Below, piece by piece: positions 26,673 through 43,868 of a stretch of 64,000 nucleotides of DNA. The notes beneath the pieces are model-generated. The model was not told where the DNA came from. It made no database searches and worked only from the letters and a program-made list of their open reading frames with translations. The translations under genes were made by a program, and so were the position numbers. Position 1 is the stretch's first letter. Each line of letters starts with the position of its first letter. This stretch comes from Chitinophagales bacterium (lineage in GTDB: Bacteria; Bacteroidota; Bacteroidia; Chitinophagales; JAUHXS01). The stretch spans positions 2,372 to 66,371 of the forward strand of contig CBDBZN010000003.1 in NCBI GenBank assembly GCA_965213575.1, read 5' to 3'.

Positions 26673-26675
26673 GCA

Positions 26676-27833: not shown

Positions 27834-27836
27834 ATT

Positions 27837-29261: not shown

Positions 29262-29289
29262 AATCTTAGCTTTCGAATGTTTCAACTTT

Positions 29290-29515: not shown

Positions 29516-29519
29516 TTTC

Positions 29520-32500
29520 TTAAATCTCAATTTTATCAATCTCTTTCATCAGTCTATCCGTTTCTGAAAGTGCTACAATGATTTTTTGATAATGCAGAAT
29601 GTCGTCAAACTCCAATTTGCGGTCTTTTCGGTCTTTGAGCCATTTTTGGGCAGGTTGATAACCACCAATGTAAAACTCCCAAGCGACTTGAGGGACATTG
29701 TCAAAATACTGCGTGTCGTTGATAAATACTTTACCGTCATTGTATTTGGGTTTGCCCACCACATTATCTCCGTCCGTTGGATATTGCGTAATGTATTGCT
29801 CAACGGTTGGACTTTCTAATAAATGAATTTGCCGTATTTCTCCGCCCATTTTTACCAAATGCCAAAAAGTGTCTTTGTCTTTGGGATAAGGAACTCTCGG
29901 AAAATCAATTTTTAAAAATTCGTTATATGTCTCTCGGTATGTTGGCGAATGCAAAACTGCATAGATGTAATCTAAAATGTCAATTGGGGCAAAAGTATTT
30001 ACTGTTGTTTCTTTTTCGTTAGTAAAAGTTAAATCTAATTTCTCCGCAATTCGTTTTACAATTTCTTTATTTAAGTTAGGAACTCTTTCAGTAGTCGGTT
30101 CAATGGTTTGTTGTCCATTACTTTCTGGGTATAAGTAGAGTGGAAAAAGGCAACCTGTGCCAAATAATTTAGCACTTGCTGTAAAGTTTCCCTCAATTAT
30201 TTTGTCTGTAATAAAGTTATGTCTATAATCTTGTGTTGTTTGTCTTGGAATAATTAATCCAATATTAGGTTGAAGTAAATGTTGCATAACTTCAAATCTC
30301 GAACGACCAATAAAACCGCCCGAATTTTTAGTAATTATTGTTTCTTTTACATCAAAAGGTCTGTAGTTAATTTTTACTTGTTTGAACGTATCATTTAAAA
30401 TACTCTCTTTGGCTCGTGCAAATGTCCAACCGCTTGAATCTTGTTTTTCCTTATACTTTGATTTTAAAAAATCAACAGTTTCAATCTCGAAATCATTTAT
30501 CACGGTTTGAAGTTTTTGATTGGAAAATTGAATAGCTAAAGCGTCACATTTAGTTTCTACGCCATTAGAGTTTGAATTTAAAACTTCATTTACTTTAAAT
30601 CCTTTTTCGTAATTTTTTATCAGTTCAAAATCTTTTGGAACGAAAAAGTAATATGGCTGAGAATAGACAAGCTTTTCCCATTTGATTTCAGAAATAGTTG
30701 AATTGTTAAGTGTTTCATATTTGTGATTCCTTTTTCCTTGCAAATCAAAATGATAAACTTCCCCTAATTCCGTTTTCTTCTTTTTATTTGTTTTTACAAA
30801 TATGTTAATTGAAACACCTTGCATAATATCAAACACATTTTGGTCAGGGCTTCCATCAGGGTAAACTTCTTTTTTCTTGGCATTTCCGTGTAAATCCAAG
30901 ATGTAAATTTTATCAAAACTCTCTAACAAGTGTTTCCGCATTTGCCTGTGAGTAATACCATCTAGGAAGCTGTTATTAGAAATGTAAGCCAAAACGCCAC
31001 TTCCATTTTTGTCGATATAATGTTGTCCGTAGCGAATGAATTTGATGTAATCATCATCCAAATTGATTTTTCGTTCATTGAGCTTTTTCTTGTAGTCAGA
31101 AATTAAATTTTGAATTCAATCATTCTTATTGGTACTGCTAACAGCATAAGGCGGATTTCCAATTACACACATTACAGGCGTGTCTCGTTTGATGTGGTTG
31201 GCTTCATTTGCTTCTGTGCTCAACCAATTGGCAAATAATGTTCCTGTGTCTTGGTGGTGCTCTTCTAAACTATTGGTAAGATATACTCGTAGACGTTGGC
31301 TCTTCTCTACTCCGCTCGAAGTAACAGATGGCTTAAATCCTGTATCGGTCAATAATAAATCTAACTTTAAATGTGCCATTGCATAACTCGCCATTAGCAA
31401 TTCAAATCCGTTCAAGCGTGGCAATAAATGAGTTTCTACATAATTGCTCCAAATACCTTGTTGTCCTTGGAATTTTTTGTGAATGTGCTTTACCACTTCG
31501 GCTAAGAAAGTTCCTGTTCCTGTGGCTGGATCCAAAATTTGTACTTTGTGTACTTCTTGCTCCATTTGTTTGTAACCTGTTGCCGAACGTTTGTCTGCGG
31601 TTTGGGTGTTTACTTTTATGGTTGTTTTGCTGGTGTCTGCAAGTCCTTGAGGTAAATCAAATTCCGTTTTTAGAATGTCGTCAACTGCCCGAACAATGAA
31701 GTTTACAACGGGTTGTGGTGTGTACCAAACGCCACGAGCTTTACGTAGCTTTGGGTCGTATTCGCTTAGGAACGTTTCATAAAAATGGATAATCGGGTCT
31801 TCCATTTTAGTGGCTTTCCCGTAGTTCTTCAAAATTTCTTCTACGTTACACGCTAAAAAGATTTCAGAAAGGTTCTCAACTACCCATTTAATTCGGTCGT
31901 CAATGTCTGGTCCTGCAATGTAGCCAAAGAGTTTACGTAAAAACGGATTTGATTTTGGAATCAGTTCAGCCGCTTCTTGCCTGTTAAAATTATCCAAAGT
32001 AGGATCGTGCAAACGAGCCGCAAACATTCCATAAGCAATGGTTTGAGCGTAAACATCCGCAAAACCTTGTGGCGTAATGTCGTGGATCAAAATTTGCTTA
32101 AAAGCCAACATTTGGTCTTTCAGCGTACTGTTTTCTTGGTTTTCTTCATCACTGGTCAACGACTTTTCGATGATATCAGAAAGAAGGCGTGCTTTGCCCG
32201 CCATCATTTCTGCTAATTTTTTTGAGCTTTTTATCGTTTGTCCAACGTGAACGCAAAAGTCTAGGATTAGGTTTTCAAAGTTGCCAAAGTTCTCAGGTAA
32301 AGGTTTTATTCCCTTATCTGTTATTTCTGCAATGGCAATTTTGGTAACAAATTCGCCTTCTCTGTACAGATGAAAGTTAATGTAGTCGGTAAAAACCAAA
32401 TTATTTAGAGAAGCTTTGTATCGATCGAACTGCTCTTTGTTTCCTGTTTTCTTTGTGCCGTCAAGGTCTTTGTCGCCAATGTCTTTGGCTTCAATAAATC

Positions 32501-32693
32501 CAACAGGAATATCTTTTTTAGTCAAAATGTAGTCAGGTGCTCCACAACTTTGTCTTTTCGGTTCGTTGGTTGCTCTGATTGTCGGCACCAAACTTTCCAA
32601 GAGTTGCTGTAAGTCGCCACGGAAAGTATGTTCGGTTGCGTTTCCGAGTCTATACCTTTTGTCTAAGTTGTCAATATATTGTTCTAATGTCAT
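29520..32693 (-). pseudogene. Type IIG (fused endonuclease-methyltransferase-TRD, MmeI/Eco57I-like) R-M enzyme interrupted by a single in-frame TGA
   Basis: ORFs 31116..32693 and 29520..31061 are in the same frame, separated only by TGA (31116..31118) and 18 sense codons. N-terminal PD-(D/E)xK is GAPDY..GFIEAKD. MTase motifs are GVWYTPQPVVNFIV, ILDPATGTGTFL and GNPPY. The reading through the stop is ...NPPYAVSSTNKND*IQNLISDYKKK.... Confidence 0.8.
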
Positions 32694-32700
32694 TTATTCA

Positions 32701-32915
32701 TTCAATTTCTGTCAGAGCGTTGGCATTGCGTGTCGGAAAAAACCAAATGTGCTGTTTGTGCGGTTGGTTTTTTTGTATGTTGGCCAACGTAGAAATGAAA
32801 ACAATTGTTTTTCCATATATATAGCTATTTATTTAACTACTATAAATGTAATAATATTCAAGTCTTTGTACAAATTAAAGTTAAACTGACATCTTCAATT
32901 TTCCATTAATTCAAA
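32701..32915. repeat. Direct repeat X, copy 1 (5' leader/promoter region of the type IIG gene)
   Basis: Shares a near-identical core with 42108..42274 and a second block (32878..32915 vs 42373..42410). Copy 2 has an extra ~98 bp between the blocks. Confidence 0.8.
32843..32873 (-). promoter_or_regulatory. Candidate Bacteroidota-type promoter (TTG-N20-TAcaTTTA) for the type IIG gene
   Basis: The minus strand reads TTGtacaaagacttgaatattatTACATTTAtag, matching the -33 TTG / -7 TAnnTTTG architecture. The same element is conserved upstream of hsdM. Confidence 0.3.
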
Positions 32916-33130
32916 TTTATCTAAAAGTCTCTGTTCCTGTATTATACAATCGGCTTATTATAAATAAAACGGCTCGGCCACTGCTCCGTAATATAAGTGA
33001 TGAAAATTATCGGATTTTATAACATGTAGACTAAAAGAGCGAGAAGTATATTATAATCAAGCCACTAAAATAATAAATGCAGATATGATGACAGGTAAAG
33101 AGTTAAAAAAGAGTTTATAAAACTGATTAA
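32915..33130 (+). pseudogene. Degenerate duplicate of the aroK 3' end (last ~72 codons)
   Basis: Aligns to 26964..27179 but carries several indels and substitutions (for example gatgaaaattatcggattttataacatgtagac vs gatgaaaatttatcggattatataacatttaaac). These destroy the frame, and there is no 5' part. Confidence 0.75.
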
Positions 33131-33262
33131 AAAGGCAAATAGCTAGAAGAGAAATTATATACTATATTGATGTTTGGTATAATTTAAAAGGACACATCTT
33201 CTTTGGGTTATTTGAGCTCTGTAGAATTTATAAAGAAAAATCAATTAGATAATGTGGTTTGA
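33131..33262 (+). mobile_element. 3'-terminal remnant of IS3-family-type transposase gene (copy B)
   Basis: Same sequence as 27180..27312 with one additional 1-nt deletion. Confidence 0.4.
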
Positions 33263-33462
33263 ACCCTTCCCTTCATTTTTAAACCATCCTTTATGTGAGG
33301 TTCTGTAATATCGAAATGTAGAATATGGTTTGAAGAATCTAGTGGATCTTCTGCAATTTTTGGCTTGAGTGTTGGCTTGTGCGAAATGAGAAACATTCAT
33401 GAACACCAAAACAAAAATTAAACCTGAGTAATTGCAAATGTGTATGGCTTTTAGCGTAGGCA

Positions 33463-36400
33463 TTATTTCGTTATTACTCTGTTTTTCTTAAAATTCTCTG
33501 CTTGTTCAAATATGTCTTTGTATACTTCGTCTCTTTCTACTGGCGGATAACCGTGTTCGTCTAAGAGGATTATTAGTCCGACTTTTAAAGCGGATTTTAT
33601 GTCTTCTCGTTTGCTCCAATCTGGATATTTGGCTTGTGAGTCCACCAAGTCTTTCACCGCCTGGGCTAAAACAATTAGTTTGTCTTCGGGATATTTGAAG
33701 TCATACTTTATACACAGGTCTTTCAAAATGTCGTAAAAGGCTTTTTCTTCAAAGTCAATTCCTAATTCGTCTCCTGCTGAAAATTCCTTTTGAACTTCCC
33801 AAATCAAATTGGTCAAATGCTCTGCCATTTCTTCGTACACTTCGCTTCGTAAAATATCATCTTCTTTTCGTTCGTTGTAGCGTTCAACCAAGGTTTGCAT
33901 TTTCTTGGAAAAGTCAATTCCTTTTACTTTATTGACTTTTTTAATCTCTCCAATGGCTTTGGCTAAAAGCTGTTGGAGCAATTTTATTTTAGTGTGCGGC
34001 AACTTGATTTTATCAATCTTTGCCAAATAGTCTTCTGAAAAAAGGTCTTGCTCGCTTTGGCTTTCATCTCCAAGTTTGAAAATTTCTTGTACGCCATCAC
34101 TTTCCAAAGCGTATTTTATCATTTCCCGAACTTTGGCATTCATTTGTGCCGTGTCGGGTGCAGTGCCTTTGGTTAGTTTAAAAACGATTGACCGAACCGC
34201 TAAATAGAAATGGGTGTAATCTCTTTCTTTCTGCGCTAAACGTTCACTTCCTGCACAAATATCATAAGCGGCTTTCAGACGTTTTACCAAACCCATAAAT
34301 CGGGTTTCTAAATCTTTGGTCAACTGAACATATTCTGCAGCCATATTTAAAGAGTTCAACTGTTCTAAAGCTGCACCACCGAAATATTTTGAACTGTCGA
34401 ACTTATGGAAGACTTTAGCCAAAAGGTCTAAATGGTTTTTTACGACTATGAGCGATTCTTGAATGTCTTCAAAATTTTCTCTTTCTCCTTTGTTGTATTT
34501 GGCAAGAGCCATATTCATAGCCTTTTTGATGCCAATATAATCGACAACCAATCCTTTGTTTTTTCCTTCAAACTTTCGATTAACTCTCGAAATGGTCTGA
34601 ATTAAATTGTGTTGCTGAATAGGCTTGTCAATGTAGATTGAATCTAAGAACGGTACATCAAAACCAGTGAGCCACATATCAACCACAATGGCAATTTTGA
34701 AATTGGATTTTTCATTTTTAAACTGCCTGTCCAATTCTTTGCGGTATTCTTTAGTGCCGAGCAAATCGTACATTTCTTTGGGGGTCGTCTTTTCCTCTAG
34801 TCATTATCATTTTGATACGCTCCATTGGTTTAATTTCCCTTTTGTTGTTGTCCGTTAAAACAGCTCCTTCTTCAGCAATACGTAATTCTGCCCATTCAGG
34901 TCTTAAAGAGATTACATTTTTATAAAACACGTAGCTAATTTCACGGCTGCTGCAAACAAACATTGCTTTGCCTTTTACAGTTGCTCCTTCGTTTACTCTG
35001 TTTTCGTAATGCTGAACAAAGTCTTCTGCCAATTTCAGCAAACGGTCCGGGTCGCCTAAAATGGAGTTCATTGTTGCCGTTGCCTTTTTGCTTTCTTCTA
35101 TTTGGTATTCATTGGCTCCTGCTTCGGCTGCTTCTTCGTAGTATTTTTCAATTTTCTCTAATTCGCTATTGTGCAAGGCGACTTTAGCTGCTCTGCCTTC
35201 ATACACAATACGAACGGTGATTTCATCTCTTACCGATTCTGTCATTGTGTAGGCATCTACTACTTGGCCAAATACATCCAAAGTAGCATCAATGGGCGTC
35301 CCTGTGAAGCCTACAAAAGTGGCATTAGGTAAAGAATCGTGAAGATATTTTGCAAAACCATAGGTTTTCTTAACACCTTCGGAAGTAACCTTAACTTTTT
35401 GATCGAGATTGGTTTGGCTTCTATGGGCTTCATCCGAAATACAAATTACATTAGTTCTTTCCGTAAGCAGTTCGGTGTCTTCTGTAAACTTGTGAATGGT
35501 GGTCAAGAATACGCCACCGCTATTTCTGCCTTGCATTTTGGTGCGTAAATCGGCTCTGCTTTCTACACTTTCCACCGCATTGTCTCCAATGAATTGTTTG
35601 GCGTTGGTAAATTGTCCTGCCAATTGGTCGTCTAAATCGGTTCTATCGGTAATGAGTACAATGGTAGGACTTTCGAAATGCTTACTTTTCATCAACAAGC
35701 GGGTGAGATAAAGCATTGTAAAACTCTTGCCGCTTCCTGTTGCTCCAAAGTAAGTTCCGCCTTTTCCGTCTCCGTCTGGCTTCTCCGCTTTTTTAATGTT
35801 TTCGTACAAACTGCGAGCAGCGTAATACTGCGGATAGCGACAAACTATTTTCTCGTCTTTTTTGGACGAATCAGGAATGTAAATAAAGTTCTGAATAATA
35901 TCCCTCAAGCGGTTTTTATGCAACATTCCCTGAACCAAAGTGAACATACTGTCTATGCCGTCCACATCTTTTGCCAAACCTGCAATTCTTCGCCAAGCGT
36001 AGTAAAACTCGTAAGGGGCAAAGAATGAACCTGCCTTGTTGTTCACACCATCACTGATGATGCAAAAGGCATTGTATTTAAACAGTTCAGGAATGTCTCT
36101 TTTATAGCGAGTGGTCAGTTGAACAAAAGCATTGTGAATGGTGGTATTTTCCTGAATGGCTGTTTTAAATTCAAAAACCACCACAGGCAAACCATTGACG
36201 TATAATATGCCGTCCGGGATTCTCCTTTCGGTGCCAACAATTTCTATTTGGTTGACAAACTTATAAATATTTGTATCAGGCGGATATTGTTCCTCAGGCT
36301 CGGCAGCAATAATGTCTAAATTTTCACTTTGTCGCTGACGGTCTAAACCTGCATAATCAATGAGCGAAATATGAATGTCTTTTTGGTTGCGGTCTTCTCG

Positions 36401-36682
36401 TTTCAGAATAAAACCGTCCGCCAACCACCGCATTATTTTTTTGTTGCTTTCGTAAAGGTCTGTCGAAGAAAGTGTTTTGAGTTGCAGAATAATGGTTTGG
36501 GCTTCTATTTCAGTTAGATTGGCGTTTTGATAGCGATTGAGCAAATATGCTTTCAGGTCTTCTTCAATCAATACTTCATCTTCACTGATACGTACCAAAC
36601 TACTGCCCACAAAATGCGGATAACCTTCATTTCCTAAAAGCTCTGTAAATGCTTGCTCTAATTTTGCCTCCGTAAATTTCAT
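33463..36682 (-). pseudogene. hsdR: Type I restriction enzyme R subunit HsdR, split as assembled by a +1 frameshift in a G5/C5 run
   Basis: ORFs 34751..36682 (N-terminal nuclease and helicase: FGATGSGKSFTM, ISDEAHRSQ DEAH box) and 33463..34773 (helicase C and C-terminal helical domain). With four instead of five G at 34780..34784 the frame reads ...IMTRGKDDPKEMYDLLGTKEYRKELDRQF.... Confidence 0.9.
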
Positions 36683-37119
36683 CGTCTCGAACTATGATTT
36701 TTCTGATTTTCTGATGGACTTTGAATTCGTTTGGGTTTCATAACCCGTTTGAATTGAAGCGATGTATTTCCAAAATTGATTAATAAGCCGATTTCCATTC
36801 CATAGGCTTCAAGGTAGTTGATGGCCTGTGCCAAATGCACATCTTCCAATTCTTTTACCGCCTTGATTTCCAACATTATTTTATCCTCAATAAAAAAGTC
36901 AACCCTTCTTGTTCCTATATCAAAACCTTTGTATTGCAGAGGCATTTCTTGTTCCCTTACGTGGGTAATTCCCTGCATATTTAATTCAATAGACAGAGCT
37001 CTTTGATAAACAACTTCCTGAAAACCATTTCCTAAATATTTGTGCAATTCCATAGCACAGCCAATAATTTTGCCCGTTAATTCGGAATACTTATACTTTT
37101 CATCAATCATAGTTTTCAT
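36679..37119 (-). CDS. GxxExxY-family protein (PD-(D/E)xK fold), paralogue 1
   Basis: 146-aa ORF. Contains GNGFQEVVY (the GxxExxY signature) and RRVDFFIEDKIMLEIKA (D...ExK nuclease-like motif). Its stop overlaps the hsdR start (ATGA). Confidence 0.8.
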   Translation of the reverse strand: MKTMIDEKYKYSELTGKIIGCAMELHKYLGNGFQEVVYQRALSIELNMQGITHVREQEMPLQYKGFDIGTRRVDFFIEDKIMLEIKAVKELEDVHLAQAINYLEAYGMEIGLLINFGNTSLQFKRVMKPKRIQSPSENQKNHSSRR

Positions 37120-37141
37120 TAAATCATTTCAAAATCATAGT

Positions 37142-38140
37142 TCAAGATTTTTTTAGCTTTTTAATGTCTCCTTCTAACTCTTTCAAACTCGCTTCCTTTT
37201 CAATCGCTTTTTGGCGCTTTTTAAATTTCTCATATTCTACTTCTGATTTCTCCAATGCCATTTTATGAGATATTTTTCCTGCGTGGGTAAGCAACTCCCT
37301 GCCGTTTAGTTGTAAAATGGAATCCAATCGCTCAATCCAATCTTTCATATACATTGGTGTTTTCTGCTGTGCCATTGTCCCGGCAAATGCCAAATACTGT
37401 TCAACCAACAAGCCCAAAAGTTTTATCTCGTCTTCTTCCAAATAGTTTTGGGCAATGCTTACTTCGGCTTTCTTAATGGAAGCCACCTGCTTTTTGTCAT
37501 AAGAGAGCATTCCCATCAAGGGCAAACTGGCATCCACACGTCTGTACACCAATTCGGCTTCGGTTTGCTCACTGATGGCCCAAAGCAGTTTGTTTTGCAC
37601 GATTTTGAAAAACTCAATGGTTTTTTCGTCTTTCGGGTCATAGTCTATACTGGTGGCATAGATGTCTTTGATTTTTTGGTAGAAAAATTTCTCCGAAAGG
37701 CGTATCTCCCGAATGCGCTCTTGAAGTTCGTTGAAATAGTTCATTGAGCTGCCCGACTTAAAGCGGTCATCATTAAGCGTAAAGCCTTTAACGATGTATT
37801 CTTTTAATCGCTGCGTTGCCCAAATGCGGAATTGTGTGCCCTGAACTGACTTTACCCGATACCCAACCGATATGATAACATCTAAATTGTAGTGGTCAAG
37901 CTCACGCTCCACCTCACGATTGCCTTCGGTTTGAACTGTCCGGAATTTCCGGACAGTTGAACTTTTCTCCAATTCACCCTCATTGAAAATATTGCTGATA
38001 TGCTCACTGATGGTACGTTTGTCCTTACCAAACAATTGCCCCATTTGTGCCTGGGTAAGCCAAACGGTTTCTTCCTGCAAGCGAACATCTATCTTGATGT
38101 TACCGTCTTGGTTTTGGTATATGAGGATGTCGCTGGTCAA
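37142..38140 (-). CDS. rhuM: RhuM-family (virulence protein RhuM) protein
   Basis: 332-aa ORF. The N-terminus ...IKIDVRLQEETVWLTQAQMGQLFGKDKRTISEHISNIF and ...YNLDVIISVGYRVKSVQGTQFRIWATQRLKEY are hallmarks of the RhuM family. Confidence 0.85.
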   Translation of the reverse strand: MTSDILIYQNQDGNIKIDVRLQEETVWLTQAQMGQLFGKDKRTISEHISNIFNEGELEKSSTVRKFRTVQTEGNREVERELDHYNLDVIISVGYRVKSVQGTQFRIWATQRLKEYIVKGFTLNDDRFKSGSSMNYFNELQERIREIRLSEKFFYQKIKDIYATSIDYDPKDEKTIEFFKIVQNKLLWAISEQTEAELVYRRVDASLPLMGMLSYDKKQVASIKKAEVSIAQNYLEEDEIKLLGLLVEQYLAFAGTMAQQKTPMYMKDWIERLDSILQLNGRELLTHAGKISHKMALEKSEVEYEKFKKRQKAIEKEASLKELEGDIKKLKKS

Positions 38141-38144
38141 ATTG

Positions 38145-38901
38145 TTAAAATTTAATGCTTTTGGTTTCTTTAAATGTTTTAAACAAGAAGATTGCCACCG
38201 AGCCTGCTAAATTGACTGCTAATTCACTATGTCTTTCTGATGGTTTGATGTTTTTTTTTGCTTTTTCCGTGAGCATCTCCAAGTTTGTTTCTCAACGCTC
38301 CTAATCCACTAACAATACCGCTTGCTCCCCCAAGAATTTGTTTAAAGATTTGCTCCTGATGATGTTCCGGTGCTAAGTTTAAAGATTTTGCAACTTCTCT
38401 ATATAATTCTGGTAATTCAGCCGCATCATTGTATTCAATATCTTGTTCGTCTAAAATGTGCTTTAATATGCTTTCAATTAATGTTCTAGCCGCTGTTATC
38501 GCACCTTCGGGTTCGATTTGTTTCCGTTCAAGAGCTTTTTGCCATTGCGAATGAATATGTGCTTCATCAAACACAATGCTTTCTTCTAAAGGTGAAGTAG
38601 ATTTCTTTTCCAAATAGTTTAGGACTGGGGCAAACTCACTCCATAAAAAATCTCTACGTTCTTGATAAGTACTAAATCTTCCTTTTATAAATGTCCAAAA
38701 TTGGTCAATAGTCCTTTTTGTCTTTATCCATTCTGGTAGCAACTTTTCTAAGGCTTTGTTCCCAATCAGTTTAGTCCTTACTGTGGTATATAATTGATTA
38801 TCAAAGTCACTCCCTGTAGCCCTTGCAACTACTCCATCTTGGAAGTATTCGACAAGTTGAAATTCACTCAATTTATTTAGTTGGTCTAGTTCTTCTTTCA
38901 T
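38145..38901 (-). pseudogene. Abi_C-type (abortive infection C-terminus, HEPN superfamily) protein, C-terminus shifted as assembled by a +1 frameshift in a T9 run
   Basis: The likely start MKEELDQLNKL (ATG 38901..38899) overlaps the hsdS stop (ATGA). GALRNKLGDAHG is the R-x6-H HEPN motif typical of Abi_C. The track ORF stops at 38227. Deleting one T of 38251..38259 extends the frame to ...AHGKSKKNIKPSERHSELAVNLAGSVAIFLFKTFKETKSIKF* (stop 38145..38147), which matches the usual Abi_C tail. Confidence 0.7.
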
Positions 38902-40091
38902 CTCATCACTGGCTCTTTTTCCATACTCTCCACAACCCCTTTCATCAACACAGGGCAAAGCGGTTTTATACTTTCTTTCAACTGTTCATTGATGCGTTTA
39001 CGAGCTTCTAAAGTATGGTAAATCGTAACTATGGCTTCTTGAATTTTAATATCTGGAATGGGCAATTTTACATCACACATATCTGCCCAAGTGAATAGTT
39101 CCGTTGAACTTCCCCAAGAATGAAAACGAGCATATCGGTCAAATTCTGAACGATAAAAAAATAAATACAGATATGCTGGATTGAGTATGTTCAGAGCATC
39201 CTTTTTTACTCTAAATGCATTATTATTCCAACTTGTTAGAAAGGTTTCTTCGGTGTTGTTGTAACCTAAGCCTACCTTGTCACCCATCCGAGTTGTACGA
39301 CTGTTGTAAACGAATTCACCTGGCGATATCACATAAAATCTTTCGAGATTTCTTCCTGCATTATTCGCTTTTGTTGGCATAAACTGCTTGCTATTAGAAA
39401 CCCCACGCACATCATCAACACCGTACTTCAAATCACTATTACGTAGCTCATTCAACTCAATATATTCTCCCAATCTTCTGAGTGGCTCTTTCTTAATCAA
39501 ATCCTCAATGTAGGTATCACAAATCAGCTGCAAATCTTCTAAGCTGTTTGCGTAGGTTTTTTGGTTCGTGAGCAAGCCTTTGTATAGGGCTACATATTTG
39601 CTTTGTTCGTCAATATCAATATCTGGAATTTCCATATCGCAAAGCCTATCCCATTCTAAACCTCCTCTCACACTGGAATCACAATATGTCCAAGCCTTTC
39701 TGTCAAATTCAGGGCGTTGAAACTCCATCATCAAAAATTCTGGAAGTAATTCATTTTCATCAATTACCTCAAAAGTGATGTATGCAGGTGAGACAAGGGC
39801 AGGTTTGTCTTCTGTGAATAATGCAACAGGTAAAACTTCATCTCTGTTAACGTGCATTAAATTAGTAGCAAACTGTCCTTTTTGAATGACTTTGTATTTT
39901 GATAGGTCTAAACCCGATTGATTTGCTACGGAAGGCATAAAGTTTTTGAAAATATTTACACCCAATAGATTAGAAACCGCCAAATCTTTATTGCGGTTGT
40001 TTATCTTTTGTATGTAATCTCCCAAGCGTCTGAACCTTGATTTTGCAAGATTTTCTTGATGACTTGATTTTTTAACTCCCTTTGTAATCAT
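38898..40091 (-). CDS. hsdS: Type I restriction enzyme S subunit HsdS
   Basis: 397-aa ORF. Two target-recognition halves are separated by conserved repeats (MEIPDIDIDEQSKYVALYKGL and VKLPIPDIKIQEAIVTIYHTLEARKRINEQLKE). Its start overlaps the upstream GxxExxY stop (ATGA). Confidence 0.85.
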   Translation of the reverse strand: MITKGVKKSSHQENLAKSRFRRLGDYIQKINNRNKDLAVSNLLGVNIFKNFMPSVANQSGLDLSKYKVIQKGQFATNLMHVNRDEVLPVALFTEDKPALVSPAYITFEVIDENELLPEFLMMEFQRPEFDRKAWTYCDSSVRGGLEWDRLCDMEIPDIDIDEQSKYVALYKGLLTNQKTYANSLEDLQLICDTYIEDLIKKEPLRRLGEYIELNELRNSDLKYGVDDVRGVSNSKQFMPTKANNAGRNLERFYVISPGEFVYNSRTTRMGDKVGLGYNNTEETFLTSWNNNAFRVKKDALNILNPAYLYLFFYRSEFDRYARFHSWGSSTELFTWADMCDVKLPIPDIKIQEAIVTIYHTLEARKRINEQLKESIKPLCPVLMKGVVESMEKEPVMR

Positions 40092-40468
40092 GGTTCAAGC
40101 CTTTTATTATTATGCACTCGTTTATGTTGAAGGCTTTTTGCACCAAAATTGATTAGCAAACCAATTTCAAGATTATAAGCCTCCACATAGTTCATTGCCT
40201 GTGCTAAATGCACATCCTCTAAATTTATTATCGCTTTGATTTCTACCATAATTTTATCCTCAACAAAAAAATCTACTCTTCTTGTGCCAATGTCATATCC
40301 TTTGTACTGCAAAAGCATTTCATGCTCACGACTAAATGCTATTCCATGCATTTGCATTTCAATTGCTAATGCTCTTTGGTAAACAACTTCCTGAAATCCA
40401 TTTCCCAGATGCTTATGAACTTCCATTGCACAACCTATAATTTTGTATGTTAAATCCTCATATTTCAT
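40088..40468 (-). CDS. GxxExxY-family protein (PD-(D/E)xK fold), paralogue 2
   Basis: The track gives a TTG start at 40507. I prefer ATG 40468 (MKYEDLTYKIIGCAMEVHKHLGNGFQEVVY...), which aligns with paralogue 1. RRVDFFVEDKIMVEIKA is present. By eye roughly three quarters of aligned residues are identical to paralogue 1. Confidence 0.8.
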   Translation of the reverse strand: MKYEDLTYKIIGCAMEVHKHLGNGFQEVVYQRALAIEMQMHGIAFSREHEMLLQYKGYDIGTRRVDFFVEDKIMVEIKAIINLEDVHLAQAMNYVEAYNLEIGLLINFGAKSLQHKRVHNNKRLEP

Positions 40469-40496
40469 AATCAAGTGATCGAATAATCCTTTTAAA

Positions 40497-42071
40497 TCAT
40501 GGTTCAAGACTGTAACCCAAAGTTTTAAAAACGTTTATCAATTGTGCTTGTGAGTCTTCTTCTTCTTTTAGCAGGGTTTTAAAATCTTGCTGAATGCGTT
40601 TCATTTCGGTGTCAAAGTCAATGCCGCTGTCTTTGTCCACAAACTCAATGTATTTGCTCGGTACCAATGAAAAATTGTTGGCTTTCAAATCTTCAAAACG
40701 GGCAGATTTACAAAACTCGGGTACATCTTTGTAGGTGGTTTCATAATCGGCTTGTTGCCAATTGTGAAAGTTTAGTGCTACTTCCTTTATATCGTCTTCT
40801 GTGAGTTCAATGTATTTTTTCTCGTACTCGCTGCCCCAACGCCTTAAATCCATAAATAGGATTTCGCCTGAGCGGTCTCGGTAGTTTTTGGGTTTGTCTT
40901 TGGTATTGTCCGTACGTTGCTTTTTGTTTTTGTTCAAAATCCAAAGCGTAACGCTGATGTCAGTGGTATAAAAGGTATCTCGGGGAATGATGATAATGGC
41001 TTCCACCATATCATTTTCAATCAACTTTCTACGGATTTTATATTCTTCGCCACCGCCCGAAAGTGCGCCATTGGCAAGAATGAAACCTGCTACGCCATTT
41101 TCAGAAAGTTTGCTCACCATATTCAAAATCCAACCGTAGTTGGCGTTGCTTTTTGGTGGTACTTCATAGCCCATCCAACGTGGGTCGTCCAAGAGTTCGT
41201 TTTCCCCTCGCCAATCCTTCAAGTTAAATGGCGGATTCGCCATAATGTAATCGGCTTTCAGGTCTTTATGTTGGTCGTTGGAAAAAGTGTCTGCGTGTTT
41301 GTCGCCAAGGTTGGCAGCAATACCACGAATGGCTAAATTCATTTTCGCCAATTTGTAAGTGGTAGGCGTGTTTTCCTGTCCGTAAATGGAAACTTCTTTT
41401 TTGCTTCCCTGATGTGCTTCAATAAATTTGATAGACTGCACAAACATTCCGCCTGTTCCACAGCAAGGGTCATAAATGATGCCTTTATAGGGCTCTATCA
41501 ATTCTGCCATCAAGTTCACAATGGTTTTGGGCGTATAAAATTCGCCTTTGCCTTTTCCGCTGCTTTCTTTCAGGGCAAACTTGCCCAAGAAATATTCATA
41601 CACATGTCCAATTACATCTTGTCCGTTGTCTTTGAGCGTGTCAATGTCGTTGATGGTGTCGAGTAGGGAAGCGAGCTTGGTTTTGTCCAATGCCAAACGT
41701 GAAAAATAATTGTCGGGCAAAGCCCCTTTTAACGCAGGGTTGTTTTTCTCAATGGTGTTGAGAGCCGTGTCAATTTTTAGGGAAATGTCGTTTTGCTTGG
41801 CATTTTTGATAATGTAGCTCCACCGGGAAATTTCTTCCAAGTAGAACACATTTTTCATAGCGTAGAAATCTTTCATTTCCACGTATTTTTCTTTGCCTTC
41901 GGCAATCAGTTCTTTTCTGCGTTGCTCAAATTTGTCGCTGGCGAATTTCAGGAAAATCAATCCGAGTACTACATGTTTGTACTCGGCAGGCTCTACCGAA
42001 CCTCTCAACTTGTCGCACGATTGCCACAAGGTTTCTTCAATCGCTTTTTCCTTTACTTTCTGTTTGGCCAT
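40497..42071 (-). CDS. hsdM: Type I restriction enzyme M subunit HsdM (N6-adenine DNA methyltransferase)
   Basis: 524-aa ORF. Contains an HsdM N-terminal domain (LWQSCDKLRGSVEPAEYKHVVLGLIFLKF), motif I IYDPCCGTGGMF and motif IV IMANPPFNLKDW. Confidence 0.95.
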   Translation of the reverse strand: MAKQKVKEKAIEETLWQSCDKLRGSVEPAEYKHVVLGLIFLKFASDKFEQRRKELIAEGKEKYVEMKDFYAMKNVFYLEEISRWSYIIKNAKQNDISLKIDTALNTIEKNNPALKGALPDNYFSRLALDKTKLASLLDTINDIDTLKDNGQDVIGHVYEYFLGKFALKESSGKGKGEFYTPKTIVNLMAELIEPYKGIIYDPCCGTGGMFVQSIKFIEAHQGSKKEVSIYGQENTPTTYKLAKMNLAIRGIAANLGDKHADTFSNDQHKDLKADYIMANPPFNLKDWRGENELLDDPRWMGYEVPPKSNANYGWILNMVSKLSENGVAGFILANGALSGGGEEYKIRRKLIENDMVEAIIIIPRDTFYTTDISVTLWILNKNKKQRTDNTKDKPKNYRDRSGEILFMDLRRWGSEYEKKYIELTEDDIKEVALNFHNWQQADYETTYKDVPEFCKSARFEDLKANNFSLVPSKYIEFVDKDSGIDFDTEMKRIQQDFKTLLKEEEDSQAQLINVFKTLGYSLEP

Positions 42072-42107
42072 TTATTTTAAGCTTTTTTTTATCGTTTTCA
42101 AATTTCG

Positions 42108-42410
42108 TTCATTCTGTCCGAGCGTTGGCAAAAATCAAATGTGCTGTTTGTGCGGTTGGCTTTTTTGTATGTTGTCCAACGTAGAAATAAAAAACAATTA
42201 TTTTTATTCCATATATGTAGCTATTTTATTTAACTACTATAAATGTAATAATATTGAAGTCTTTGTGCAAATTATTAATATTTAATGTAAAACATAAAAC
42301 CGCATAATTATACGAATAACTCTACGGTTTATGATAGCTTATCAAAGAGATGCTATACTCATTCAGTATAAAAAGTTAAACTGACACCTTCAATCTCCCG
42401 TTAATTCAAA
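42108..42410. repeat. Direct repeat X, copy 2 (5' leader/promoter region of hsdM) with ~98-bp insertion
   Basis: 42108..42274 and 42373..42410 match 32701..32877 and 32878..32915. 42275..42372 is specific to this copy. Confidence 0.8.
42240..42270 (-). promoter_or_regulatory. Candidate Bacteroidota-type promoter (TTG-N20-TAcaTTTA) for the type I operon
   Basis: The minus strand reads TTGcacaaagacttcaatattatTACATTTAtag. This is the same element as at 32843..32873. Confidence 0.3.
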
Positions 42411-42533
42411 AATTAAAAATTAAGCATTCAAAACTATTTTACAATCGTAGCTCGTAAATCTGCAATCATCAATTTGAAAATTATTCCTCTAACCTAGAAA
42501 AGGTCTGTAAAATTAACTTTAAGTTTGTAAAGT

Positions 42534-43868
42534 ATGTTTTCCAAACAAAAAATACAAGCGTATCTCCGATTTGTCCAGCACGATATTTGGCGCATGTCAT
42601 TAGATGATCTCCCTAAGCGCAAATATTATTTATTAAAGCAACTTAGAGTCCTTCTTTTAGCAATCAGGGGATTTAATGAGGATAAGTGTATGCTACAAGC
42701 TTCGGCACTCACTTTTTATTCTATGCTTTCAATTGTACCACTCATTGCAATGGCATTCGGCATAGCCAAAGGATTTGGGTTTGAGAAAATGATGGATGAG
42801 CAATTGTTAGAGATGTTTGGCCATCAAGAGGCAGTCCTGAGCCAAGTTTCTGCTTATGCACACGCTGCTTTAGATAATACACAGGGTGGGTTAGTAGCGG
42901 GAATAGGAATAGTGATCTTATTATGGACAGTTATGAAAGTATTGGGGAATATTGAAAGTTCTTTTAACGATATATGGGAAGTTAAAAAAGCAAGGTCTTG
43001 GCCGCGTAAATTCACAGACTATTTATCTATTATGTTGATTGCTCCCATCCTGTTATCACTGTCAAGTAGTATAACTGTTTTTATGACTACAAATATTACG
43101 GAATTTGTAGAAAGCCTTAGATATTTAGGTTTTCTTGCTCCTATTATTGCTGCGTTGTTTAGTTTGTCAAAATTTGTTTTAATCTGGATTTTGTTGACTT
43201 TTTTATATTTAGTAATGCCTAATACTACTGTTAAATTTAAATCTGCTTTGATAGCCGGTATCTTAGCAGGAACGTTATATAGCATTACAGAGTGGATATT
43301 TGTTAGTTTCGAAGTTGGAGTAGCTCGTTATAATGCCATATATGGTAGTTTTGCCGTTGTCCCGCTTTTTTTAGTATTTATGCAAACAGCTTGGTTAATC
43401 GTGCTATTTGGTGCTGAGTTGGCATTTGCACAACAACACGTAAATCGATATGAATTTGAAATAGAATCCGCATCGATCAGTATAAATTATAAAAATCTAT
43501 TGACGTTATGGGTGTTGCATATGTTAATTAAAAATTTCGAAAATGGTGAAAGGCCACCTACGCTTGCTGAGATTTCTAAAAACTTAAAAGTGCCAATGCG
43601 TTTACTACGGCAAATAGTTTTTGATTTGGAAGCAGCAGGATTAATCTCAGAAATAAAAACTAAAAAAGAAAAAGAAATGGCGTATCAGCCGGCACGAGAT
43701 ATACATAAATTAGATATCAGTACTATTCTTAATGACCTTAATAATTATGGAGTGGGGGAACTGCCTGTTCATAAAGATAAAGCATATAAAAATTTAGAAA
43801 ATGCAATGGAAGCTTTTAAAAGACAAGTGTCTTTATCATTAGGGAATAAACTGCTCAAAGATATATAA
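42534..43868 (+). CDS. YihY/BrkB (virulence factor BrkB) family membrane protein with C-terminal wHTH-like extension
   Basis: 444-aa ORF. ASALTFYSMLSIVPLIAMAFGIAKGFG and six TM helices are typical of YihY. The C-terminal ~120 aa are soluble. Confidence 0.8.
   Translation: MFSKQKIQAYLRFVQHDIWRMSLDDLPKRKYYLLKQLRVLLLAIRGFNEDKCMLQASALTFYSMLSIVPLIAMAFGIAKGFGFEKMMDEQLLEMFGHQEAVLSQVSAYAHAALDNTQGGLVAGIGIVILLWTVMKVLGNIESSFNDIWEVKKARSWPRKFTDYLSIMLIAPILLSLSSSITVFMTTNITEFVESLRYLGFLAPIIAALFSLSKFVLIWILLTFLYLVMPNTTVKFKSALIAGILAGTLYSITEWIFVSFEVGVARYNAIYGSFAVVPLFLVFMQTAWLIVLFGAELAFAQQHVNRYEFEIESASISINYKNLLTLWVLHMLIKNFENGERPPTLAEISKNLKVPMRLLRQIVFDLEAAGLISEIKTKKEKEMAYQPARDIHKLDISTILNDLNNYGVGELPVHKDKAYKNLENAMEAFKRQVSLSLGNKLLKDI

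What the first reader, a model, noticed from the sequence alone, without database searches (positions are those of the whole stretch)
33463..42071. Seven-gene type I R-M operon with four embedded accessory genes (2x GxxExxY, Abi_C/HEPN, RhuM): candidate R-M-guarded abortive-infection module
Minus-strand order is hsdM - GxxExxY - hsdS - Abi_C(HEPN) - RhuM - GxxExxY - hsdR. The junctions leave no room for separate promoters. GxxExxY-2 stop / hsdS start share ATGA (40088..40091). hsdS stop / Abi start share ATGA (38898..38901). The Abi stop (after frame correction) lies 4 nt from the rhuM start. rhuM to GxxExxY-1 is 22 nt. GxxExxY-1 stop / hsdR start share ATGA (36679..36682). Four non-R-M genes are therefore co-transcribed, and partly translationally coupled, with the three R-M subunits. 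The Abi protein carries GALRNKLGDAHG (R-x6-H, the HEPN RNase signature). Both GxxExxY proteins carry a D...ExK nuclease-like motif. The classical precedent for a latent toxin nested in a type I operon is PrrC in the EcoprrI (prr) locus. Each of these families is individually seen in defence islands. To my knowledge this fixed four-gene insertion pattern has not been described as a functional system.
Basis: partly seen in the sequence, partly recalled or inferred. Interest (0 to 1): 0.75.

Follow-up and report, generated by a model that had tools for sequence, protein, structure and literature searches.

The report
Type I restriction operon carrying hitchhiker genes
This is a horizontally acquired bacterial restriction-modification operon that has picked up two known kinds of anti-phage genes and two copies of a small inverted-repeat-flanked nuclease cassette; this kind of embedding is already described, but the cassette may be an undescribed mobile element.

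Summary
The Abi gene is also frameshifted. A housekeeping permease nearby carries the same kind of homopolymer error, so these are probably sequencing errors.

The "fixed four-gene pattern" is not supported. In about 170 related loci no other locus has all four genes. Only hsdS-Abi is a stable adjacency, and only within one Bacteroidota/Campylobacterota clade. RhuM appears sporadically. The slot before hsdR holds many other defence genes elsewhere (pAgo, GmrSD, AbiE, TIR, SIR2).

The operon is a recombinant mosaic sitting in a tandemly duplicated aroK/yihY hotspot. Genes embedded in type I operons are already described (PrrC, TgvAB, DarTG2, "guilt-by-embedding"), and RhuM/PDC-S05 has been shown experimentally to protect against phage.

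The new point concerns the two GxxExxY genes. Each lies in a cassette of about 470 nt flanked by inverted repeats, inserted exactly at a gene junction. The cassette arms supply the stop codons of hsdM and rhuM and the start codon of hsdS. Close relatives sit in type I operons in about half of 77 metagenomic loci.

The parts
40497..42071 (-). hsdM, the type I methyltransferase subunit (524 aa). Its TGA stop (40499-40497) lies inside the left arm of GxxExxY cassette 2.
   Evidence: Pfam N6_Mtase 1.9e-97 and HsdM_N 2.1e-24. PADLOC MTase_I 2.3e-149. Stop-codon position.
40028..40510 (-). GxxExxY cassette 2 (483 nt). It comprises the left arm GTCTTGAACCATGATT... (40510-40495), the GxxExxY-2 ORF (40468/40507-40088), an inner left-arm-like repeat (40101-40086) and the right arm ...AATCAAGGTTCAGAC (ending at 40028).
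   Evidence: TIGR04256 6.8e-40 and PDDEXK_3 2.2e-38. Absent at the same junction in L001, L002 and L004, whose hsdM is 79-93% identical in nucleotide sequence. Arms located. The arms pair as a terminal stem in both the MFE and centroid RNA folds, z = -2.7. The block is shared with L154.
38898..40091 (-). hsdS, the specificity subunit (397 aa as annotated). The ATG (40091-40089) and the first 21 codons (to 40029) are encoded by cassette 2. Native-type sequence (RLGDYIQ...) begins at 40027.
   Evidence: PADLOC Specificity_I 2.8e-97. Pfam Methylase_S 5e-08. N-terminus compared with L001 (MSYKRLGDYIQ). Homology to L001 resumes at 40028.
38145..38901 (-). AbiJ-family HEPN gene (Abi_C), 251 aa after removing one A from the A9 run at 38251-38259. 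As sequenced the ORF stops at 38227. Its start overlaps the hsdS stop (ATGA).
   Evidence: Pfam Abi_C 7.7e-15, 55 bits against a cutoff of 24. PADLOC AbiJ 3.6e-16. Corrected frame matches 19 homologues, and R204/H211 are invariant. More than 4000 relatives found.
37142..38140 (-). rhuM (332 aa, TTG start), equivalent to PADLOC candidate PDC-S05. Its TGA stop (37144-37142) lies inside the left arm of cassette 1.
   Evidence: Pfam Virulence_RhuM 1.1e-102. PDC-S05 8.7e-137. A PDC-S05 representative has been shown to protect against phage (PMC12881386).
36684..37147 (-). GxxExxY cassette 1 (464 nt). It comprises the left arm TCTTGAACTATGATT... (37147-37133), the GxxExxY-1 ORF (37119-36679, whose C-terminal tail SPSENQKNHSSRR is encoded by the right arm) and the right arm ...AATCATAGTTCGAGAC (ending at 36684, 1 nt before the hsdR ATG).
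   Evidence: TIGR04256 3.4e-40. A clean insertion relative to L002 and L081. The arms pair in both the MFE and centroid folds, z = -2.8. The same rhuM-cassette-hsdR block occurs in Cecembia lonarensis at 89.8% over 4799 nt. AF2 model pLDDT 83, with best Foldseek hits to Cas4 and lambda-exonuclease-type PD-(D/E)XK nucleases.
33463..36682 (-). hsdR, the restriction/translocase subunit. It is 1072 aa after removing one C from the C5 run at 34780-34784. As sequenced it is split into 643-aa and 436-aa ORFs.
   Evidence: Pfam HSDR_N, SWI2_SNF2 and ResIII on the first ORF; T1R_D3-like and T1RH-like_C on the second. PADLOC REase_I profile positions 4-599 and 602-1025. Frameshift site.
42072..42533 (-). 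Upstream non-coding region of the operon. It contains a repeat (42124-42274 and 42372-42410) that also lies upstream of the neighbouring type IIG gene (32732-32915).
   Evidence: One Bacteroidota-type -7 motif (TAGTTTTG) at 42436-42429. Promoter function is inferred, not shown.

Best explanation
The locus is a horizontally acquired, recombinant type I R-M operon (hsdM-hsdS-hsdR) that acts as a carrier for independently acquired passengers, all read from the hsdM promoter. There are three kinds of passenger:
1. An AbiJ-family HEPN RNase gene. In one Bacteroidota/Campylobacterota clade it always sits directly behind hsdS.
2. A RhuM/PDC-S05 gene, a single-gene anti-phage defence that turns up in many type I operons.
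3. Two copies of a GxxExxY (minimal PD-(D/E)XK nuclease) cassette of about 470 nt flanked by inverted repeats. Each sits exactly on a gene junction. The arms supply a stop codon for the upstream gene and a start context for the downstream gene, so the insertions need not be polar.

Defence is layered, not one seven-part machine. R-M cuts unmodified incoming DNA. The HEPN protein (inferred RNase, abortive infection or dormancy) and RhuM act as separate back-ups. The GxxExxY cassettes are most likely self-propagating hitchhikers that are tolerated or retained in type I operons.

Shown here: gene content, junctions, presence/absence polymorphism, mosaicism and the repeat architecture. Inferred: co-transcription, RNase activity, independence of the layers and cassette mobility.
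For: Abi-anchored comparison:
- In 19 loci with Abi 52-95% identical, Abi lies between hsdS and hsdR.
- The other cargo there varies from 0 to 10 genes.
- RhuM is present in only 5 of those 19 loci, and GxxExxY in none.

Cargo in related operons is a catalogue of defence genes: AbiEii/DUF6088, ThsB-TIR, SIR2, Schlafen, DUF1016, GmrSD, Fic, RT, and Piwi/pAgo in Cecembia.

Mosaic structure:
- L001 shares hsdM, Abi and hsdR at 90-93% nucleotide identity but lacks rhuM and both cassettes.
- L170 shares rhuM-cassette 1-hsdR at 89.8% over 4799 nt, with pAgo where Abi sits in the window.
- L154 shares the hsdM 3' end, cassette 2 and the hsdS 5' end.

Horizontal transfer: the host's SecDF has no relative above 74% identity, whereas HsdM and HsdR reach 96% amino-acid identity to other Bacteroidota.

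Cassettes:
- In 55 of 80 GxxExxY genes the upstream flank aligns to the reverse complement of the downstream flank better than in any shuffle.
- The arm variants covary: 35 of 37 are concordant at the first variable base.
- Median element length is 479 nt.
- 34 ORF-less arm pairs were found in the loci.
- 39 of 77 loci have type I genes within two genes of the cassette. The remainder sit among housekeeping genes.

Literature: HEPN plus RhuM in R-M operons (PMC3710099); guilt-by-embedding; TgvAB and DarTG2 embedded between hsdS and hsdR and active on their own; PDC-S05 gives about 1000-fold EOP reduction.
Against: - The strict hsdS-Abi adjacency and start/stop overlap within the clade could reflect functional coupling, not mere co-carriage.
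- Finding half of the closest GxxExxY relatives in type I operons is far above chance. That could mean a real R-M-related function instead of hitchhiking. The sample is also biased, because the queries themselves came from a type I operon.
- No target-site duplication and no recognised transposase were found; 8-11 nt of the empty-site junction are replaced instead. The mobility mechanism is therefore unknown.
- No expression or activity data exist for this locus.
- As sequenced, hsdR and Abi are out of frame.
Confidence: 0.62

Rival explanations
1. PrrC-like guard model. The HEPN protein, and perhaps RhuM, is held latent by binding the HsdM/HsdS(/HsdR) complex. It is released as a suicidal RNase when a phage anti-restriction protein inhibits the enzyme.
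For: - Abi follows hsdS directly, usually with overlapping or near-overlapping start and stop, in all 19 clade loci.
- The ATGA overlap is present in the window.
- The HEPN catalytic dyad is invariant.
- PrrC is a precedent for a HEPN-type nuclease embedded in a type I locus.
- Anantharaman et al. noted that AbiJ-type HEPNs lacking N-terminal sensor domains are more often found in R-M operons.
Against: - No ABC-ATPase domain like PrrC's is present.
- The protein keeps a conserved N-terminal domain of about 130 aa that could itself be the sensor.
- Homologues at 39-55% identity are mostly outside R-M loci: about 5 of 61 are near type I genes, and the rest sit beside unrelated genes.
- In several clade loci other genes lie between hsdS and Abi (L005, L007-L009, L012).
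- Embedded systems tested so far (TgvAB, DarTG2, PDC-S05) work without the host R-M.
Confidence: 0.2
2. The GxxExxY proteins are genuine accessory components of this class of type I system, for example a small nuclease or regulator. Their inverted-repeat arms would then be RNA-level elements (processing or translational-coupling stems), not transposon ends.
For: - 39 of 77 closest relatives lie within two genes of hsdM/S/R, at several junction types. Five operons in that sample carry two copies, and Christiangramia fulva carries two in tandem.
- The PD-(D/E)XK catalytic residues are invariant.
- The arms fold as a long terminal stem in RNA.
- The arms carry in-frame stop and start codons for the neighbouring genes.
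Against: - Operons about 90% identical (L001, L002, L081) lack them.
- Positions inside operons vary widely.
- About half of the relatives sit among unrelated housekeeping genes such as MacB/FtsX, phosphorylase and tRNA synthetases.
- ORF-less arm pairs exist, resembling non-autonomous derivatives.
- PADLOC has no model for the family.
Confidence: 0.2
3. The locus is decaying. The hsdR and Abi frameshifts are real, so the operon now provides only methylation (HsdM/S) plus RhuM. The neighbouring degraded R-M genes belong to the same erosion.
For: - Frameshifts in hsdR (34780-34784) and Abi (38251-38259).
- The adjacent type IIG gene has an in-frame TGA, a substitution and not a homopolymer error.
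- A second, clearly degraded type I remnant lies at 27514-29488.
Against: - All three frameshifts in this stretch are +1 insertions in homopolymer runs, and one is in a housekeeping ABC permease. This is the signature of read or assembly error on a metagenomic contig.
- Apart from the single-base insertions, both genes stay open and conserved over their full length.
Confidence: 0.2

Closest known systems
EcoprrI-PrrC (prr locus, E. coli): anticodon nuclease embedded in a type IC R-M operon
   Same: A latent HEPN-type RNase gene nested between hsd genes and co-oriented with them. It illustrates the idea of a second, suicidal layer behind restriction.
   Different: PrrC has an N-terminal ABC-ATPase domain and a demonstrated physical and functional dependence on EcoprrI and T4 Stp. 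The window's protein is an AbiJ-family HEPN with an unrelated N-terminal domain of about 130 aa and no ATPase. No dependence on R-M has been shown, and its more distant relatives are stand-alone.
Defence systems embedded in type I R-M operons (TgvAB in V. cholerae VPI-2, DarTG2 in the EPEC RRDM island, PADLOC PDC/HEC candidates found by "guilt-by-embedding")
   Same: Co-oriented cargo sits between hsdS and hsdR. The slot behaves as a hotspot with interchangeable cargo, and the cargo usually works on its own. RhuM is PDC-S05 from that catalogue, and a representative has been validated.
   Different: This locus combines an AbiJ-type HEPN, RhuM and two GxxExxY cassettes. No other locus found here has that combination. 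GxxExxY is not in PADLOC.
AbiJ (Lactococcus abortive-infection protein; HEPN family AbiJ / Pfam Abi_C)
   Same: C-terminal HEPN domain with the Rx4-6H motif. Pfam Abi_C and the PADLOC AbiJ model both match residues about 150-236.
   Different: Only the C-terminal part matches. The N-terminal domain is not assigned to any AbiJ-NTD. The AlphaFold model is of modest quality (pLDDT 69) and gives no significant structural match; the best HEPN hit is 1o3u at E = 0.68. Activity is untested.
23S rRNA intervening sequences with an ORF (S23p / 23S_rRNA_IVP four-helix-bundle proteins), and more loosely MITE/autonomous-element pairs or REPIN-RAYT systems
   Same: A small ORF is bracketed by long inverted repeats that can form a stem in the transcript. 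The ORF is inserted into another transcription unit, and ORF-less derivatives exist. IVP genes with their own inverted repeats occupy the same rhuM|hsdR junction in L004 and a similar site in L165. The comparison with rRNA intervening sequences and RAYTs rests on my own knowledge of those systems.
   Different: The ORF here is a PD-(D/E)XK nuclease (GxxExxY), not a four-helix bundle or an HUH transposase. The host transcript is an mRNA operon, not rRNA. No target-site duplication was found, and RNase III processing and mobility are untested.

Membership tests
Type I restriction-modification system | HsdM with HsdM_N plus an N6 adenine methyltransferase domain | tested here: met
   Pfam N6_Mtase 1.9e-97 and HsdM_N 2.1e-24. 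PADLOC MTase_I 2.3e-149.
Type I restriction-modification system | HsdS specificity subunit with two target-recognition regions | tested here: met
   PADLOC Specificity_I 2.8e-97 over residues 17-391. Pfam Methylase_S on the C-terminal half. TRD1 diverges from L001 and L002 as expected for a variable region.
Type I restriction-modification system | Intact HsdR with a nuclease N-domain, SF2 motor and C-terminal domain | tested here: inconclusive
   All domains are present, but the reading frame is broken by a +1 insertion at 34780-34784. This is probably a sequencing error, because a housekeeping gene carries the same kind of defect.
HEPN superfamily, AbiJ / Abi_C family | Rx4-6H catalytic motif in an all-alpha C-terminal domain, with a family HMM match above the curated cutoff | tested here: met
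   R204-NKLGDA-H211 is invariant in 20 sequences. Abi_C scores 55.2 bits against a cutoff of 24. PADLOC AbiJ 3.6e-16. The model is all-helical. Structural confirmation is weak.
HEPN superfamily, AbiJ / Abi_C family | RNase activity and an abortive-infection phenotype | not testable with these tools
The gene as sequenced is frameshifted.
PrrC/RloC-type R-M guard | N-terminal ABC-type ATPase fused to the C-terminal nuclease | tested here: not met
   No ATPase domain appears in the Pfam, NCBIfam or PADLOC scans of the 251-aa protein.
PrrC/RloC-type R-M guard | Embedded in a type I operon and silenced by association with the R-M complex | tested here: inconclusive
   Embedding behind hsdS is met in 19 of 19 clade loci. 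Physical association and activation by anti-restriction proteins cannot be tested here. Distant homologues are mostly not in R-M loci.
RhuM (PF13310) / PADLOC PDC-S05 | Full-length match to the family model | tested here: met
   Virulence_RhuM scores 343 bits against a cutoff of 33.7, covering profile positions 1-250 of 252. PDC-S05 8.7e-137.
GxxExxY protein (TIGR04256) / PDDEXK_3 | Family HMM above cutoff, the GxxExxY motif, D...ExK catalytic residues and a PD-(D/E)XK fold | tested here: met
   136 and 137 bits against a cutoff of 35. Motifs invariant in 26 sequences. AF2 pLDDT 83, with best Foldseek hits to Cas4 SSO0001 (E = 6e-5) and lambda-exonuclease-like nucleases.
Transposable element with terminal inverted repeats (for the GxxExxY cassettes) | Terminal inverted repeats conserved among dispersed copies | tested here: met
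   In 55 of 80 copies the flank inverted-repeat score exceeds every shuffle. Consensus arms. Arm variants covary.
Transposable element with terminal inverted repeats (for the GxxExxY cassettes) | Filled and empty orthologous sites | tested here: met
   Filled versus empty at two junctions: rhuM|hsdR (window versus L002 and L081) and hsdM|hsdS (window versus L001, L002 and L004). The breakpoints fall at the arm ends.
Transposable element with terminal inverted repeats (for the GxxExxY cassettes) | Target-site duplication and a recognised transposase | tested here: not met
   No duplication is present at either junction; 8-11 nt of the empty site are replaced. The only ORF is a minimal PD-(D/E)XK nuclease.

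The most novel reading that the evidence does not exclude
The GxxExxY (TIGR04256/PDDEXK_3) genes are the protein-coding members of a previously undescribed family of small mobile cassettes of about 420-710 nt, flanked by inverted repeats and compatible with life inside operons. Their features are:
- Structured arms: left arm GTCT(T)GAACYATGATT followed by ATGATT sub-repeats; right arm its complement.
- ORF-less hairpin derivatives.
- Insertion exactly at gene junctions.
- Arms that bring a stop codon for the upstream gene and a start for the downstream gene.

They are strongly over-represented in type I R-M operons, and 23S_rRNA_IVP-type small ORFs follow a parallel design. The encoded minimal nuclease may act on the cruciform or stem formed by its own arms.
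Probability: 0.4. Interest if true: 0.65.

Novelty: new member of a known kind. Interest (0 to 1): 0.4.

Why it matters
As a defence locus this is one more example of a known design: type I R-M operons serve as platforms into which other defence genes are embedded and co-expressed. It adds a clear mosaic example. It also shows that one AbiJ-type HEPN clade is tied to the position behind hsdS, which makes that clade a reasonable candidate for testing R-M-coupled abortive infection.

The more useful lead is the GxxExxY cassette. This is a very large, uncharacterised protein family; the search here hit its 8000-candidate ceiling. The full-text search found only five papers that use any of its names.

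Three things are now directly testable: whether these genes ride in inverted-repeat-flanked mini-elements, whether the arms preserve translation of the neighbouring genes, and why the elements concentrate in type I operons.

It is also a caution for "guilt-by-embedding" screens, because not every embedded gene is necessarily a defence gene.

Tried and rejected
- The sigma-70 promoter and terminator scan of 32600-42600 gave counts at the shuffle expectation. It is also unsuited to Bacteroidota.
- The Bacteroidota -7 motif TAnnTTTG occurs only twice on the operon strand (expectation about 3) and never upstream of an internal gene. This is weak negative evidence only.
- PDB sequence searches for RhuM, GxxExxY and the Abi profile gave no significant hits.
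- The Abi AlphaFold model (pLDDT 69) gave no Foldseek match below E = 0.6. A HEPN protein (1o3u) ranked second, which is not decisive.
- The Rfam scan of 26000-43000 returned only one sub-threshold hit (COG2908 RNA, 24 bits against a gathering score of 58.7), treated as chance.
- Exact-sequence look-ups of window proteins in public assemblies found nothing on record, so the source genome could not be named.
- A viral-contig scan for the 15-mer GTCTGAACTATGATT returned 44 stretches, but only 1 carries a GxxExxY gene. The matches are at about chance level, so there is no evidence that phages carry the cassette.
- A target-site duplication at the two cassette insertions was looked for and not found.
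- My interim conclusion that GxxExxY is unique to this type I locus came from Abi-anchored loci only. The GxxExxY-anchored scan overturned it.
- An integron attC-like reading of the arm pairs was considered but could not be tested with the tools. The arm ends do not fit the GTTRRRY core by eye.

Full report
**1. The observation**

The minus strand between 42071 and 33463 carries, in order: hsdM, a GxxExxY gene, hsdS, an Abi_C gene, rhuM, a second GxxExxY gene and hsdR.

Pfam, NCBIfam and PADLOC confirm every family call:
- hsdM: N6_Mtase 1.9e-97 plus HsdM_N.
- Both small genes: PDDEXK_3 at about 1e-38 and TIGR04256 at 136-137 bits against a cutoff of 35.
- hsdS: PADLOC Specificity_I 2.8e-97.
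- Abi: Abi_C 55 bits against a cutoff of 24, and PADLOC AbiJ 3.6e-16.
- rhuM: Virulence_RhuM 343 bits, and PADLOC PDC-S05 8.7e-137.
- hsdR: HSDR_N, SWI2_SNF2, T1R_D3-like and T1RH-like_C.

The ATGA overlaps lie at 40088-40091, 38898-38901 and 36679-36682. Four nucleotides separate the corrected Abi stop from the rhuM TTG start. Twenty-two nucleotides separate rhuM from GxxExxY-1.

The HEPN motif RNKLGDAH and the GxxExxY and D...ExK motifs are present and invariant among homologues.

**2.

*hsdR is split.* One extra C in a C5 run (34780-34784) divides it into 643-aa and 436-aa ORFs. Removing that base gives a 1072-aa protein. The Abi gene is broken in the same way by an A9 run (38251-38259). 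The corrected C-terminus (…HGKSKKNIKPSERHSELAVNLAG…) matches 19 homologues. A housekeeping ABC-transporter permease 12 kb away (25610-26672) carries a third +1 insertion in an A5 run. Pfam maps profile positions 1-90 and 90-183 onto its two halves. Three +1 homopolymer errors, one of them in a core gene, on a contig of 66,854 nt point to sequencing or assembly error and not to decay. Only the reads can settle this.

*The tight junctions around the GxxExxY genes are not native.* This is set out in section 5.

**3. Is the four-gene pattern fixed?**

*Abi-anchored loci.* A profile of the Abi protein recovered 80 loci from one genome per species. I annotated them with tblastn and iterated HMMs built from the window's proteins.
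- In the 19 loci whose Abi is 52-95% identical (Bacteroidota plus Campylobacter, Helicobacter and Sulfurospirillaceae), the gene always lies inside a type I operon downstream of hsdS, usually immediately.
- RhuM is present in only 5 of these 19 loci, and GxxExxY in none.
- The number of other genes between hsdM and hsdR ranges from 0 to about 10.
- Metagenomic contigs show the same variety: hsdS-Abi-two unknown genes-RhuM-hsdR; hsdM-RhuM-hsdS-Abi-MarR-RhuM-IVP-unknown gene-RhuM-hsdR; and hsdM-hsdS-Abi-GmrSD-hsdR.

*Cargo.* A Pfam scan of 72 cargo proteins from these operons reads like a defence catalogue: DUF6088/AbiEii, ThsB-TIR, SIR2, Schlafen, DUF1016/YhcG, AAA_13/21, Fic, reverse transcriptase, HerA and 23S_rRNA_IVP.

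*Distant Abi homologues.* Those at 39-55% identity are mostly not in R-M loci. About 5 of 61 are near type I genes and one abuts an MmeI-type enzyme. The rest sit next to unrelated genes.

*GxxExxY-anchored loci.* Among the 80 loci found with the GxxExxY query, only one also has an Abi homologue.

No locus other than the window combines all four accessory genes.

**4. The operon is a mosaic and was acquired horizontally**

- L001 shares hsdM (92.8% nucleotide identity), the hsdS 3' end plus Abi (90.5%) and hsdR (90.7%), but has neither rhuM nor the cassettes.
- L002 has hsdM-hsdS-Abi-rhuM-hsdR at 88-92% without the cassettes.
- Cecembia lonarensis (L170) shares one uninterrupted 4799-nt block at 89.8% covering rhuM, GxxExxY-1 and hsdR. 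It carries a Piwi/pAgo gene and an unknown gene where the window has Abi.
- L154 shares the hsdM 3' end, GxxExxY-2 and the hsdS 5' end.
- The host's SecDF has no relative closer than 74% and otherwise sits at 53-57% to assorted Bacteroidota. HsdM and HsdR reach 96% amino-acid identity to a Flammeovirgaceae MAG.

The locus also sits in a duplicated hotspot. Coordinates 26964-27599 (the aroK 3' end, an IS3-like remnant and the last roughly 90 nt of hsdR) are 96.7% identical to 32915-33551. The region upstream of hsdM (42124-42410) repeats the region upstream of the neighbouring type IIG gene (32732-32915).

The first repeat unit holds the wreck of a second type I operon: the last 31 codons of hsdR, an 82-aa RhuM N-terminal fragment, an AAA_15/21 ATPase and an hsdS 3' end. 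It also holds an MmeI-like type IIG gene with an in-frame TGA.

**5. The GxxExxY genes are inverted-repeat-flanked cassettes**

*Insertion boundaries.* Relative to L002 and L081, GxxExxY-1 is a clean insertion between rhuM and hsdR. Relative to L001, L002 and L004, GxxExxY-2 is an insertion between hsdM and hsdS.

*Context of relatives.* A metagenome scan with the two proteins returned 80 loci at 61-95% identity. In 39 of 77 loci a type I subunit lies within two genes of the GxxExxY gene. The positions vary: after hsdM, after hsdS, before hsdR or after hsdR. Five operons have two copies, and Christiangramia fulva has two in tandem. The remaining loci have unrelated neighbours, including MacB/FtsX permeases, glycogen phosphorylase, tRNA synthetases and a few other methyltransferases.

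*Conserved architecture.* Aligning the flanks shows the same layout across copies:
- Upstream: GTCT(T)GAACTATGATT-n-ATGATT-n-ATGAAnACTATGATT.
- Downstream: its complement, AATCATAGTnnATCAnnAAATCAnnnAATCATAGTTCAGAC.

*Statistics.*
- In 55 of 80 copies the upstream flank aligns to the reverse complement of the downstream flank better than in any shuffle.
- Arm variants (TA, CT, CA) covary between the two ends: 35 of 37 are concordant at the first variable base.
- Median length between the outer arm motifs is 479 nt.
- Thirty-four arm pairs without an ORF were found in the fetched loci, mostly beside GxxExxY genes, and resemble non-autonomous derivatives.

*In the window.* The cassettes span 36684-37147 and 40028-40510.
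- The left arms contain the TGA stops of rhuM (37144-37142) and hsdM (40499-40497).
- The hsdS ATG (40091-40089) and its first 21 codons are cassette sequence. The native N-terminus in L001 is MSYKRLGDYIQ, whereas the window reads MITKGVKKSSHQENLAKSRFR followed by RLGDYIQ.
- The C-terminal tail of GxxExxY-1 is encoded by the right arm, which ends 1 nt before the hsdR ATG.
- As RNA, both cassettes fold with the arms paired as a terminal stem in the minimum-energy and centroid structures (z = -2.8 and -2.7).
- No target-site duplication is visible. Instead, 8-11 nt of the empty junction are replaced.

*The protein.* It models confidently (pLDDT 83). Its best structural matches are Cas4 (SSO0001, E = 6e-5), lambda-exonuclease-like nucleases, MGME1 and splicing endonucleases. 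It is therefore a minimal PD-(D/E)XK nuclease.

*A parallel family.* Small 23S_rRNA_IVP-type ORFs at the same kind of junction in L004 and L165 carry their own, different inverted repeats.

*Literature.* The full-text search found only five papers containing "GxxExxY", "PDDEXK_3", "TIGR04256" or "PF13366". None of those I read describes this architecture.

**6. Mechanism**

The best-supported reading is a layered defence locus, not a single seven-part system. The following steps are inferred, not shown.
- The type I enzyme restricts unmodified DNA.
- The AbiJ-type HEPN protein is a predicted metal-independent RNase whose conserved N-terminal domain probably senses infection.
- RhuM/PDC-S05 is a stand-alone defence. 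One representative reduced plating of T7 and T5 about 1000-fold in E. coli (PMC12881386).
- All genes are probably read from the hsdM promoter. No Bacteroidota -7 motif precedes any internal gene.

The PrrC-type guard model remains possible for the HEPN clade because of its strict position behind hsdS. Against it, the protein lacks PrrC's ATPase, distant relatives are stand-alone, and embedded systems tested so far act independently of the host R-M.

The cassettes are most simply explained as self-propagating or recombination-spread elements adapted to operon junctions. A genuine R-M-related role is the main alternative, given their enrichment in type I operons.

**7. Comparison with what is known, and verdict**

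HEPN and RhuM genes in R-M operons were interpreted as multi-level defence in 2013 (PMC3710099). RhuM is enriched next to invertible hsdS genes (PMC9881135). Embedding in type I R-M, BREX and DISARM has been mined systematically. TgvAB and DarTG2 are worked examples located between hsdS and hsdR.

The finding as stated is therefore a new member of a known kind, and its claim of a fixed, undescribed four-gene module is not supported. The part that may be new is the cassette nature of the GxxExxY genes.

Interest is 0.4 overall, and higher if the cassette reading is confirmed.

Noticed in passing
window 26964-27599 versus 32915-33551; 32732-32915 versus 42124-42410: The island between aroK (26676-27179) and the yihY/BrkB-like gene (42534-43868) consists of two tandem units. 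Each is bounded by the same left flank (639 nt, 96.7% identical: aroK 3' end, IS3-like transposase remnant, last roughly 90 nt of hsdR) and the same right flank (about 190 nt, 90% identical, with a roughly 98-nt indel). It looks like two alternative alleles of one hotspot joined by recombination.
   Followed up: partly
window 27514-29488: Remnant of a second, related type I operon. It contains the last 31 codons of hsdR (27606-27514, 94% identical), an 82-aa RhuM N-terminal fragment (27833-27585), an intact AAA_15/AAA_21 ATPase resembling AriA/PtuA (29285-27837) and an hsdS 3' end (29488-29307).
   Followed up: partly
window 29520-32693 (in-frame TGA at 31116-31118): MmeI-like type IIG restriction-methyltransferase with a Type_ISP_C specificity domain. 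It is interrupted by a single in-frame TGA within ...NPPYAVSSTNKND*IQNLISDYKK.... The position looks like a Trp codon (TGG to TGA), but I did not check this against homologues.
   Followed up: no
window 25610-26672 (A5 run at 26374-26378): An ABC-transporter permease (BPD_transp_1) is split by a +1 insertion in a homopolymer. This is the same defect seen in hsdR and Abi and suggests homopolymer over-calling in this assembly.
   Followed up: yes
L001 10762-12099; L081 1541-2884; L011 10803-12182; L154 10924-12264: A conserved pair of unknown genes (about 173 aa and about 273 aa, with no significant Pfam match) recurs inside related type I operons, after Abi or before RhuM. It could be a further two-gene embedded module.
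   Followed up: no
L170 (Cecembia lonarensis AMGM01000013.1) 4833-7969: A Piwi-domain prokaryotic Argonaute (763 aa) plus a 285-aa partner is embedded in a type I operon, in the slot that Abi occupies in the window. It is followed by the same rhuM-GxxExxY-hsdR block.
   Followed up: partly
L004 6560-7000; L165 1600-2030; L082 10488-10862: 23S_rRNA_IVP-type ORFs of about 120 aa inside type I operons are flanked by their own inverted repeats, built from AATGGTTAAT or AATTGATAAT sub-repeats. In L004 and L165 the repeat score exceeds all 100 shuffles; in L082 it is borderline. The design parallels the GxxExxY cassettes.
   Followed up: partly
L171/L172 (Christiangramia fulva CP028136.1), locus L171 5390-6500: Two GxxExxY cassettes lie in tandem after hsdS. 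Each is followed by the same roughly 80-nt copy of the hsdS 3' end, so the cassette and its target flank were duplicated together. An IS256-family transposase interrupts a GmrSD gene in the same operon.
   Followed up: partly
window 32055-32087 (+): Sub-threshold Rfam hit to COG2908 RNA (24.3 bits against a gathering score of 58.7, E = 0.01). It lies antisense within the type IIG gene and is probably chance.
   Followed up: no
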